From Podarcis pityusensis (Eukaryota), in assembly GCA_964106645.2 (NCBI GenBank), contig OZ067046.1: a stretch of 64,000 nt of DNA; one strand, written 5' to 3'. Position numbers: made by a program. Below, piece by piece: positions 17,101 through 20,100 of the stretch (the first letter of the stretch is position 1; the number at the start of each line of letters is the position of its first letter).

Positions 17101-20100
17101 TGTTGTATGGGGAACAACGATCATTGTAGGCTGTAGAAATAACTATATTTATTGCTTTGATTTATGTGTTTCTAAAACCAAATATGGTGTCTAAAATTTC
17201 CCTTTTTGGGTATTTTTAATTTTGCTTGTACAAAATAGTGCTGGGTGGTGTTAGGTTTTCAACATCACACTGTACCACCAGCCAAGCACTGTGATCTGAC
17301 GATACACCGTGATGTTGAAACAAGCCGCGTTGGCCCCACCCTGTGAGGTGTGGGGTAAAACTGCTGCAGCTCTCACTGCAGGAGCTGAGGAGCTTTCACC
17401 CTAATGCCTCATGGGCAGGGACAATGCAACTTGTTTGCACTGCTCAGCGAGTCCAATGTCTGCTGAGGGGCAGGCAGCCATATGCCCCTAACAGAGAGGT
17501 TTAAGGGGGGAACCCCACCCCCACCTCTGGCTTAGGTGAGGTGGGGGCTCTGTTACACTTGAGGAAGCCCGGCGAGCTACCTCTTTCTCCCAGGAGGTTG
17601 AGGCAACCCGCTCACCCCCCCTCAAGTGTAATAGAGCCCCAACCCCACCACTGGCTTGCTACACTTCCCTGCTGAGCGGTGGGCAGCTACGCACCCCAGA
17701 ACTTCAAAGGAGCCATCTGCCTGTGCAGGCAGCTGAGGGAGGAACAAATGTAGCTTGCTCCTCTGTCAGCAGTATGAGGGCCAGAGCGCAATGGCTGCTT
17801 CACTCAGTGGTGAAACGTCTGCTGCAGCTCGTTTCTCCCTTGCCCGCTGGTGACAGAGGGAGTCAGCAGTGGCAGTTTCACCCGCAATATACTGCCAGGT
17901 GAAGCAGCCATCGTGGTCTGTCCCTGGGTGATGTATCTATACATTGCCCAGGCCTAGTACAAAATAGAAAACCTTGCCTTCAGAGCAAAATCATCTATTA
18001 ACTTAAACCGAGCTTCCTGACATAACAGAGTTATCTTGACATCAAGTTACCTTGTGTACTTTACATAAAAATATTTTAATAGCCATGGTCATCACTGGCT
18101 AATATATTAAAATGTACTGACCATGGCTGTGTTAGATGCCATACTATATTTTACCAGGGCACTTTAGAATGTGGAGTAATTTTGATCCCCGCAATAGCGT
18201 CATTTGAAGTTATGGATTTGCTAATACAAAGCATTTCGAAAACATGGCTGGAGCATTTTATTTGAGAGCAGCATTCAACCCCCAACACTGATGGCGTGAT
18301 AGAAAAGTACTGTACTGAATATTGCAGGAATGGATGAGCTGGTAGGGTTCAAGGGTTCACTGTTTAACTTTTTATCATATATTGCAATACGATATATGTG
18401 CGGGGTAAGTGTCCCACCAAGACAAGGATTGCTGCTTGCACAGAACAGGACGTCCTGCCTCCTCTTCCCCTGCACAGACACCTGCTTCAGAGGGTTGAGG
18501 GAAGCACCAGAGGAAATTGAGGGGGGAAAGCCCTGTTGCCCAAGCAGGAATCCGTGTGCTGGCAGGACACTTAATGCTGCTTTGGCTCATTTCTGTAATG
18601 TGGAAATGACAAAACAGAAGTTTACATTTGTTCCAGAAAACAGGTAGATGTTGAAAATCAAAGTGCTAATGTTGTGAAACAATGTGCTCTTTCTATTACA
18701 TGCTATAAGGATCATGCATAGCATACAGGACATTTTTTATTTTAGTATATGTGCTGCCGAAGCGAGCACCATACAGGACATTTTTTAAAGGTAATATCTA
18801 TGTCCATATAGGTGCTCCTAACTGTTATGGATGAATTTTTGAGTGAAGATCACAGGGAGGTATCTAATGTCATGGGAGCAGACAAGGCATGACTTCCCTT
18901 TCCTGTCTTCCTCACTGTAACTCTCCATGCCATCCTAATCTGCTTCTAAGTCCTTCAAGCCCATAAAGCAGATTTTAGGGACACACCGGGGGTGGGGTGG
19001 GTAGGGAAAGTTCCATTTATGGGAGTACAACTCACTGTTTTTTCCCTGAATTATCACCAACAGGAACGAACTTCTTGTTAAACCTTTTCATGTAACCTTA
19101 AAAAAACAAGCAGCAATGAATAACCCATAAATGAAAACATAAATAAAAAGTACTTTCAAAGCTACATAAACACTTGTCTTTTTTTATTGAAATAGAACAA
19201 ATTTTCCGTGATTAACCATTTACATTAAAATTTGACGATCAAAAACCAAAAAGAGAAATTGCACTAATATATCCCGTAGTCATAGATCATTTTACTTAGG
19301 TTTTATTGTTGGTAAAAACACATAATTAGATACCTATAGCAATTCAGGCTTTTCTTAGAAGATAAACCTGACATTTGTAACAAAAAGACAATGAATACGT
19401 ACATCTTCTGATAACTTTCAGCAGATTATAATTTAATAGGAATTAAAATGACATTAGTATAAGAAACAATTGCACTTTAAAACATTTGAAAAATTAAAAA
19501 AGTACACAAAACAAAACCCCACAATTGTACATTTGTTCATAATTTTATACACCACTATATGAACAACAGAGGTTAAGCATCTGTGACCTCAGAAATAATA
19601 TTTTGTTCCCAAACGTTAGTGATGCCCAACTCCTGTTGAAATCAATACAACTTATTAATTTCAACAGAACTTGGATATGATTAACTTCCTATAGCTTAAG
19701 TCTTTTGTATATAAGTTACTCCACCGCCACCAAAAGTTGAGACCATATTCTACATAGTGGTCAGATCAGTTTTTTTAAGCGTTTTGAATAAATGTCATGT
19801 TTGTTCAGTAGAAAGGCTGTGGCAGAGCTTAAGCAAAGTAACACTTCATTGGTATTTAGTGCAAAATTTTCAAGTTGACTTTTACATGAAATGAAAATGT
19901 TGAAAATATAGGCTTCTAAAAAGGTTTCCAAACCAATATTGTACATACCCCCAACTCTGATCCAGATACTGATTCATGAATGGAAATGGTTTTCCCCTTC
20001 CTATAAATGCAACAGAGTGCTGCTTTGGACACCCCCCTCCCCCATCAAATGACTGGGGAAATATCTGCAGGGGCAGCACACCTTGCAGTGTAACCAATAC

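What the first reader, a model, noticed from the sequence alone, without database searches (positions are those of the whole stretch)
18722..18786. Perfect tailless U6 5'-fragment retrocopy with an L1-style target site, antisense within the likely AASDH 3'UTR
Seen: U6 nt 1-31 on the - strand, no mismatch, no poly(A) tail, between identical 17-bp direct repeats; on the - strand the site reads TTT|AAAAAATG. Known: TT|AAAA plus a long TSD is the LINE-1 endonuclease/TPRT signature, and tailless RNA retropseudogenes truncated at internal A-rich sites are described mainly in mammals. Inference: a recent L1-type trans-mobilisation event in a lizard, possibly polymorphic. If AASDH uses the 19142 signal, its mRNA carries 31 nt complementary to the U6 5' stem-loop.
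Basis: partly seen in the sequence, partly recalled or inferred. Interest (0 to 1): 0.7.

Follow-up and report, generated by a model that had tools for sequence, protein, structure and literature searches.

The report
Tailless U6 retrocopy in wall lizard
A 30-31 base copy of the start of the U6 spliceosomal RNA was pasted between two lizard genes, most likely by a LINE-1-type jumping-gene enzyme; it is real, but this kind of insertion is already described in mammals and in the anole lizard.

Summary
On the - strand, 18739/18740-18769 equals U6 snRNA nt 1-30/31 with no mismatch. The inferred target site reads TTT|AAAAAA, or CTT|TAAAAAA. Neither the repeat nor the U6 match is chance.

The best explanation is a 3'-truncated "tailless" U6 retropseudogene. 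A LINE-1-type endonuclease/reverse transcriptase primed inside U6, in the single-stranded stretch after the 5' stem-loop, and copied to the RNA's exact 5' end.

The class is known. Doucet et al. 2015 list 25 3'-truncated U6 copies in Anolis carolinensis. Noll et al. 2015 report tailless retropseudogenes in the anole. So "mainly in mammals" is outdated.

The window is a Podarcis-like lacertid. This is therefore a new member of a known kind, in a second lizard family.

"Recent" is only loosely bounded: zero changes in 67 site-equivalents allows up to about 4.5% divergence. Polymorphism and the empty site could not be tested, because no lizard genomes are on hand.

The AASDH 3'UTR claim is conditional. 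The stop codon is at 17192-17194, ATTAAA lies at 18106 and AATAAA at 19142. The site lies between the convergent genes AASDH (+) and CRACD (-). The insertion junction creates an AATAAA on the CRACD strand.

The parts
18770..18787 (-). 5' copy of the target-site duplication, in the orientation of the U6 insert. Read on the - strand it is (T)AAAAAATGTCCTGTATG.
   Evidence: Perfect 18-nt direct repeat. No repeat of 17 nt or more in 30 simulated windows.
18739..18769 (-). U6 snRNA nt 1-31 with no mismatch. It is nt 1-30 if base 18739 is counted with the duplication. It comprises the 5' stem-loop plus the single-stranded A-rich stretch that follows.
   Evidence: Rfam RF00026, model positions 1-29, E 0.024. 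Identical to the first 31 letters of the printed human U6. Unique in the window. The hairpin folds at -9.5 kcal/mol.
18722..18739 (-). 3' copy of the target-site duplication. Its first six A on the - strand abut the U6 end.
18781..18789 (+). Inferred first-strand nick site on the + strand, which is the 'bottom' strand for this insertion: TTTTTT/AAA, or TTTTTTA/AA.
   Evidence: Read. It matches 5'-TTTT/A as quoted in PMC4476161 and TT/WAAAAWW in PMC5322556. Such sites occupy 0.06-0.13% of positions.
18736..18741 (-). AATAAA hexamer on the - strand, created by the junction of U6 nt 29-31 with the first three A of the 3' duplication. It is absent from the inferred empty site.
   Evidence: Its function is not tested.
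16793..17194 (+). Last coding exon of AASDH (beta-alanine-activating enzyme), with the stop codon at 17192-17194.
   Evidence: Pfam PF13570, profile positions 205-329 of 329, E 2.9e-43. tblastn of lacertid AASDH. ORF list.
18106..18111 (+). ATTAAA, the first poly(A)-signal-like hexamer after the AASDH stop. If it is used, the insert lies outside the mRNA.
19142..19147 (+). If it is used, the AASDH 3'UTR is about 1.95 kb and carries the U6 antisense.
23011..23178 (-). Last coding exon of the convergent gene CRACD (KIAA1211). Its 3'UTR runs toward the insert.
   Evidence: tblastn of Podarcis CRACD proteins, residues 1439-1494 of 1494, 98% identity. DUF4592 at 41258-41515 on the - strand.

Best explanation
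This is a 3'-truncated ('tailless') U6 snRNA retropseudogene made by target-primed reverse transcription with a LINE-1-type ('relaxed') machinery.

Inferred steps:
1. The endonuclease nicked the window's + strand at TTTTTT/AAA (or TTTTTTA/AA).
2. The freed T-rich 3' end annealed weakly inside a U6 RNA, in the single-stranded stretch just after the 5' stem-loop (nt 31-36). With the 18-nt reading, the primer end TTTTTTA faces U6 nt 31-37 with 3 Watson-Crick and 2 G-T pairs out of 7.
3. Reverse transcriptase copied from nt 31/30 to the very 5' end of U6.
4. A second nick 17-18 nt away and repair produced the duplication.

The copy has no promoter of its own and is most likely inert.

Shown: the anatomy, namely the exact U6 5' end, the truncation point, the perfect 18-nt duplication and the target motif.
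Inferred: the enzyme, the internal priming and the inertness.
For: - The insert starts exactly at U6 nt 1 and ends at nt 30/31, with 31 of 31 identity.
- The duplication is a perfect 18 nt. None of 30 simulated windows gave a repeat of 17 nt or more.
- The target motif TT|AAAA occupies only 166 of 128,000 positions. It fits both the 5'-TTTT/A site and the tailless consensus TT/WAAAAWW.
- The truncation lies in a stretch that the Rfam consensus marks unpaired, directly after the stem-loop. The papers describe truncations in single-stranded, purine-rich segments.
- The copy meets the operational criteria of Doucet et al.: at least 26 nt, at least 97.5% identity, duplication of at least 10 nt. 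It also meets those of Noll et al.: at least 30 nt, 5'-complete, 3'-truncated by at least 10 nt, duplication of 8-35 nt.
- The same class is reported in a lizard: 25 3'-truncated U6 copies in Anolis and tailless forms in the anole.
- L1-clade LINEs exist in a lacertid genome: L1/CIN4 makes up 1.6% of the Darevskia valentini genome.
- Vertebrate L1s, lizard ones included, end in poly(A).
Against: - No L1 element or reverse-transcriptase ORF lies in the window: 0 of 117 ORFs of 85 aa or more. The enzyme is inferred from the signature alone.
- Microhomology at the 3' junction is only 0-1 nt of exact identity. That is weaker than the complementarity the papers describe as typical.
- No empty site could be examined.
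- A short oligo(A) tail of up to 6 A would be hidden in the duplication.
- I could not see whether nt 30/31 is a known U6 breakpoint. The figures and supplements of both papers are not held.
Confidence: 0.75

Rival explanations
1. The same L1-type machinery acted, but the template was a pre-cut U6 5' fragment (nt 1-31) that had received a short oligo(A) tail. The tail paired with the T-run of the nicked target and is now hidden in the six A that open the 3' duplication.
For: The 3' duplication copy starts with AAAAAA directly after U6 nt 31, so up to 6 tail residues cannot be told from target sequence. Exact junction identity with U6 beyond nt 31 is at most 1 nt.
Against: Noll et al. looked for oligoadenylated truncated 5S and U2 copies and for matching truncated RNAs. 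They found neither, and concluded internal priming. That test was not made for U6.
Confidence: 0.13
2. Another LINE clade abundant in lizards (L2/CR1 or RTE/Bov-B), rather than L1, made the copy.
For: In Anolis, U6 forms chimeras with L1-, L2- and RTE-like LINEs and with AnolisSINE2. Bov-B is very abundant and young in Podarcis muralis: 49,938 copies below 0.15 divergence. L2/CR1/Rex make up 8.8% of a lacertid genome, against 1.6% for L1.
Against: There is no LINE- or SINE-derived 3' tail between U6 and the duplication. Doucet et al. argue that stringent LINEs need such a tail and do not give 3'-truncated or poly(A) copies, and that L2 gives duplications of only 1-9 bp. The split RTE signature, a T-run about 10 nt upstream of the duplication, is not seen at this site (printout).
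Confidence: 0.06
3. A U6 cDNA or RNA fragment was captured at a staggered double-strand break during repair, independent of any endonuclease.
For: Short filler insertions at breaks are known in general (recalled, not tested here). The junctions show almost no microhomology.
Against: An 18-nt perfect duplication that starts exactly at a TT|AAAA-type site is expected at about 0.1% of positions. The insert ends exactly at U6 nt 1, which points to run-off reverse transcription.
Confidence: 0.05
4. Chance resemblance or assembly artefact.
For: None found. Rfam does not report the fragment at gathering threshold.
Against: The 31-mer is identical to U6. None of 100 shuffles matched the 25-mer even at 3 mismatches. 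No simulated repeat reached 17 nt. An artefact would not be flanked by a duplication at an endonuclease motif.
Confidence: 0.01

Closest known systems
3'-truncated U6 processed pseudogenes (the '3'-trunc' group of Doucet et al. 2015, PMC4476161), including 25 copies in Anolis carolinensis
   Same: The U6 5' end is intact and the copy is truncated in a single-stranded purine-rich segment. There is no attached repeat and no poly(A). It is flanked by a duplication of at least 10 nt at a 5'-TTTT/A-like site. The host is a lizard.
   Different: The host family is Lacertidae, not Dactyloidae. The exact 3' junction homology is only 0-1 nt. Whether nt 30/31 is one of their truncation segments could not be seen, because Fig. 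3A and the supplements are not held.
Tailless retropseudogenes (Schmitz et al. 2004, known to me only through citations; Noll et al. 2015, PMC5322556)
   Same: The copy is 5'-complete, 3'-truncated and lacks an oligo(A) tail. The duplication is perfect. The target TT/WAAAAWW is met in both readings (W = A or T). Internal priming at an A-rich single-stranded site is proposed. U6 is named as a well-represented source in human, and the green anole as the only non-mammal with such copies.
   Different: At 30-31 nt it sits at their minimum length of 30 nt. Their non-mammal survey used 5S rRNA and U2, not U6.
U6/LINE chimeric retrocopies (template switching or RtcB ligation; PMC4476161, and PMC6789731 from its search listing only)
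   Same: The source RNA is U6, the mechanism is LINE-driven, and a duplication flanks the insert.
   Different: Those carry a full-length U6 joined to a 5'-truncated LINE, SINE or mRNA piece with its own 3' end. Here nothing lies between U6 nt 31 and the duplication.

Membership tests
Tailless / 3'-truncated snRNA retropseudogene | Derived from a small RNA and complete at that RNA's 5' end (at most 5 nt missing) | tested here: met
   The insert begins at U6 nt 1. Rfam U6 model position 1; identical to the start of the printed U6.
Tailless / 3'-truncated snRNA retropseudogene | 3'-truncated by at least 10 nt; length at least 26 nt (Doucet) or at least 30 nt (Noll); identity at least 97.5% | tested here: met
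   30-31 nt of a U6 whose Rfam model has 105 positions; 100% identity. Criteria read.
Tailless / 3'-truncated snRNA retropseudogene | No oligo(A) tail | tested here: inconclusive
   There is no A-run beyond the duplication. With 6 A in the 10 nt after the insert, it stays below Doucet's poly(A) call of more than 6. A tail of up to 6 A would merge with the A6 that starts the duplication.
Tailless / 3'-truncated snRNA retropseudogene | Flanking target-site duplication (8-35 nt, or at least 10 nt) | tested here: met
   18 nt, 100% identical. Not expected by chance.
Tailless / 3'-truncated snRNA retropseudogene | Target site like the L1 endonuclease consensus (TT/AAAA; TT/WAAAAWW) | tested here: met
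   TTT|AAAAAAT or CTT|TAAAAAA on the - strand. Motif frequency is 0.06-0.13% of positions.
Tailless / 3'-truncated snRNA retropseudogene | Truncation in a single-stranded, A/purine-rich segment, with complementarity to the nicked target | tested here: met
   The end lies in the stretch marked unpaired after the stem-loop. The complementarity is weak: 1 nt exact, or 3 Watson-Crick plus 2 G-T of 7, using U6 nt 31-37 as printed.
Tailless / 3'-truncated snRNA retropseudogene | An empty orthologous site shows that it is an insertion | not testable with these tools
   No lizard genome collection is on hand. Genome contigs holds only bacteria and archaea and was not used.
U6/LINE chimeric retrocopy | LINE, SINE or mRNA sequence joined 3' of U6 inside the duplication | tested here: not met
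   The duplication abuts U6 nt 30/31 directly.
Functional U6 gene | Full-length U6 reaching the Rfam gathering score | tested here: not met
   15.3 bits against a gathering score of 44; only model positions 1-29 of 105.
Element of the AASDH 3'UTR | Lies between the stop codon and the poly(A) site actually used | not testable with these tools
   It lies downstream of the stop at 17192-17194. Candidate signals are at 18106 (before the insert) and 19142 (after it). No transcript data are available.

The most novel reading that the evidence does not exclude
The insertion is young and may still be segregating in a Podarcis lineage, and it is not inert. Its junction created a canonical AATAAA on the CRACD-sense strand (18736-18741) and, on the AASDH-sense strand, a T-rich tract ending in AG. 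It could therefore have changed 3'-end formation of one of the two convergent genes, or placed 31 nt of U6 antisense in a long AASDH 3'UTR isoform.
Probability: 0.04. Interest if true: 0.45.

Novelty: new member of a known kind. Interest (0 to 1): 0.15.

Why it matters
It adds one clean example to a known class. It suggests that the 'relaxed' L1-type retroposition predicted for lizards from the anole also operated in lacertids.

Such perfect, tiny insertions are nearly homoplasy-free presence/absence markers. This one could serve in lacertid phylogeny or population work.

It does not open a new mechanism. Any effect on AASDH or CRACD transcripts is speculative.

Tried and rejected
- Rfam at gathering threshold on the whole window, and at E-value threshold on 501 bases and on the whole window, did not report U6. 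Only the 31-base search did. The other hits in those scans are sub-threshold miRNA-like matches, mostly in a palindromic tandem array, and I take them as chance.
- Self-BLAST of 17195-20500 against the window found no second copy of the flanks, so no paralogous 'empty site' exists in the window.
- The Pfam scan of 117 ORFs found no reverse transcriptase or endonuclease. The two weak hits (AcrF8, CEBP_ZZ) are below their cut-offs.
- The bacterial promoter/terminator scan is not relevant to a vertebrate and gave nothing.
- Literature on L1 in Podarcis: one search found 0 papers. led only to a Darevskia repeat table and to a CR1 paper that says nothing on lacertid L1 in the passages shown.
- The 2025 LINE-1 recombination preprint mentions tailless copies only in its reference list.
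- I considered and dropped a U6/L1 chimera, a real U6 gene, and an 11-nt 'duplication' around 17239-17956. About 30 repeats of that length are expected by chance, by my own estimate from the per-base match probability.
- Genome contigs, structure prediction, complex prediction and the atlas were not used, since none bears on the question.

Full report
**What is there**

Read on the - strand, the site is...ACCTTT / AAAAAATGTCCTGTATG / 31 nt / AAAAAATGTCCTGTATG / CTATGC....

The repeat finder gives a perfect direct repeat of 18 nt, at + strand 18722-18739 and 18770-18787. That base is also the last base of the U6 match. The insert is therefore U6 nt 1-31 with a 17-nt duplication, or nt 1-30 with an 18-nt duplication. 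The coordinates are otherwise right.

**Is it U6?**

Rfam finds nothing at gathering threshold in the window. It also does not report U6 when 501 bases or 64 kb are scanned at E-value threshold.

Given only the 31 bases, the U6 model RF00026 matches positions 1-29 of 105. The match is cut off at the 3' side, scores 15.3 bits, and has E = 0.024.

The exact 31-mer is held by 62 papers. In the one passage I read (PMC10045129) it is the beginning of the printed human U6 snRNA, which goes on TGGAAC. Doucet et al. state that the human U6 sequence is conserved in lizard and birds (PMC4476161, passage).

**Is it chance?**

No.
- A 25-nt stretch of the U6 part has 1 match in the window at up to 3 mismatches, and 0 of 100 shuffles give one.
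- I removed three tandem-repeat regions and low-complexity words. The window then holds 35 direct repeats of 12 nt or more within 1.5 kb. The 18-nt pair ties for fourth longest.
- The other repeats of 14 nt or more lie in a 398-bp duplication near 49.8-50.3 kb, in tandem copies, or in loci of a dispersed repeat family.
- In 30 Markov-simulated windows, no repeat of 17 nt or more appeared.
- The 5' edge of the duplication falls on TT|AAAA, a motif found at 166 of 128,000 strand positions. TTT|AAAAAA is found at 21 positions and TT|WAAAAWW at 72.

**Host and surroundings**

The window holds no N. I do not take it for human.
- One AASDH exon (11969-12718) is 96% identical to the Podarcis raffonei cluster, 92% to Zootoca, 58% to Anolis and 48-49% to mammals (430 proteins at E <= 1e-10 among 1883 candidates).
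- The large exon of the next gene is 99% identical to CRACD of Podarcis lilfordi, 95% to P. raffonei and 94% to Lacerta agilis.

The host is therefore a Podarcis-like lacertid.

I searched the window's exons one at a time.

AASDH lies on the + strand:
- Pfam finds AMP-binding, AMP-binding_C and the ACSF4 beta-propeller. The propeller's last part (profile positions 205-329 of 329) is in the ORF at 16754-17191.
- Residues 78-1086 of the P. raffonei protein map to 969-17182.
- The stop codon is at 17192-17194.

CRACD lies on the - strand. Its DUF4592 domain is at 41258-41515 and its last coding exon at 23178-23011. The two genes converge, and the insert sits between their stop codons.

Poly(A)-signal-like hexamers:
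- On the + strand after the AASDH stop: ATTAAA at 18106, followed by a GT-rich stretch, and AATAAA at 19142.
- On the - strand: ATTAAA at 22135 and 19432, and AATAAA at 19302, 19183, 18736 and 18257.

The insert is in an AASDH mRNA only if the 19142 signal is used. Nothing here can tell which signal is used.

**Mechanism**

The anatomy is that of target-primed reverse transcription by a LINE-1-type enzyme.
- The window's + strand carries TTTTTT/AAA, or TTTTTTA/AA, at the edge of the duplication. This is the 5'-TTTT/A site (PMC4476161, section 8).
- The copy runs to U6 nt 1, as expected of run-off reverse transcription on the RNA.
- It stops at nt 30/31, in the stretch that the Rfam consensus marks unpaired right after the 5' stem-loop.

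Both Noll et al. (PMC5322556, section 14) and Doucet et al. (section 8) describe truncations at single-stranded, purine-rich segments. They explain them by priming inside the RNA.

Exact identity between U6 beyond the junction and the target is only 0-1 nt. Allowing G-T pairs, the primer end TTTTTTA faces U6 nt 31-37 (as printed) with 3 Watson-Crick and 2 G-T pairs out of 7. This is my inference and is not tested.

A short oligo(A) tail of up to 6 A would be hidden in the six A that open the duplication. A pre-cut, oligoadenylated fragment therefore cannot be excluded.

No LINE lies in the window: 0 of 117 ORFs of 85 aa or more hit a reverse transcriptase. L1/CIN4 elements make up 1.6% of another lacertid genome (PMC9498476, passage). 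Vertebrate L1s, lizard ones included, end in poly(A) (PMC5381506, passage).

Stringent LINEs (L2, RTE/Bov-B) are abundant in these lizards. They are expected to need their own 3' tail, and that tail is absent here.

**Comparison with what is known**

The class is described.
- Noll et al. extracted 2,402 perfect human tailless copies and name U6 as a well-represented source. They write that the green anole is the only non-mammal in which they found such copies.
- Doucet et al. list 192 U6 hits for Anolis carolinensis, of which 41 were analysed: 16 joined to repeats and 25 3'-truncated (Table 2).
- The present copy meets the stated criteria of both papers.

I saw no report for lacertids. The searches were:
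- 25 papers, 20 listed;
- 59 papers, 15 listed;
- 0 papers;
- 287 papers, 15 listed.

These cover open-access text only. The figures and supplements of both key papers are not held, so I cannot say whether nt 30/31 is a known U6 breakpoint. Schmitz et al. 2004 was not read.

**Age**

There are no differences between the two 18-nt copies or between the 31 nt and U6. That is zero changes in 67 site-equivalents.
- The 95% upper bound is 4.5% divergence, and the 50% point is 1.0%.
- At the 0.0013 substitutions per site per Myr used for squamates in PMC13295347 (passage), this is roughly 34 Myr at the upper bound and 8 Myr at the median. The conversion is mine.

'Recent' is therefore relative. The insert may be shared by several species. 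Polymorphism is a guess.

**Possible effects**

The + strand RNA version of the insert folds into its own hairpin (-6.9 kcal/mol) and the U6-sense version into the 5' stem-loop (-9.5 kcal/mol). Pairing of an AASDH 3'UTR with U6 would have to open both hairpins. I rate a function low.

The junction creates AATAAA on the - strand (18736-18741) and the run TTTTTTATTTTAG on the + strand (18733-18745). Neither is in the inferred empty site. No transcript data exist here to judge either.

**Verdict**

It overstates the novelty and is conditional on the 3'UTR claim. It is a new member of a known kind.

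Noticed in passing
window 18736-18741 (- strand): The junction of U6 nt 29-31 with the first three A of the 3' duplication creates a canonical AATAAA on the CRACD-sense strand. The inferred empty site has no such hexamer. On the + strand the same junction reads as a long T-rich tract ending in AG.
   Followed up: partly
window 18646-18670 and 21838-21862 (+ strand): An exact 25-nt match 3.2 kb apart, with unrelated flanks apart from a short gapped similarity downstream. 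It is far beyond chance. On the - strand (CRACD sense) both copies contain a heptamer that I recall as a seed match of the miR-17/20/93/106 family. That identification is recalled and not tested. The second copy lies in the likely CRACD 3'UTR.
   Followed up: partly
window 17239-17956: A G+C-rich block in the AT-rich region just after the AASDH stop. It contains an internal inverted repeat (17535-17649, 72% identity). It is bounded by an 11-nt direct repeat, GTACAAAATAG (17228-17238 and 17957-17967). A repeat of that length is expected by chance about 30 times in the window, so this is not proof of an insertion. No other copy lies in the window.
   Followed up: partly
window 18406-18438 / 18541-18573: An inverted repeat with 33-nt arms, 82% complementary and 102 nt apart, 150-300 nt from the U6 insert. 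It may be a small foldback or MITE-like element.
   Followed up: no
window 38600-39900: A G+C-rich tandem array of palindromic units of about 130 bp in a CRACD intron. It gives many sub-threshold miRNA-like Rfam hits and long ORFs in all frames.
   Followed up: no
window 36400-37000 (- strand): A 42-nt (14-residue) tandem repeat inside the large CRACD exon, encoding a run of Q/E/R-rich repeats. The Podarcis reference proteins differ in length here.
   Followed up: no
window 24400-24620, 28040-28210, 48370-48900, 49650-49690, 54510-54620, 57450-57620: A dispersed repeat family sharing words such as GTTCTTAACCTGAAGCA, with short internal direct repeats. It is probably a SINE or MITE of this lizard. 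It was not classified.
   Followed up: no
window 49804-50265: A local duplication with a period of about 398-418 bp, showing exact stretches of 20-37 nt.
   Followed up: no
window 17183-17194: The AASDH reading frame runs three codons past the end of the Podarcis raffonei reference protein before the stop. This is a small C-terminal difference between species or annotations.
   Followed up: no
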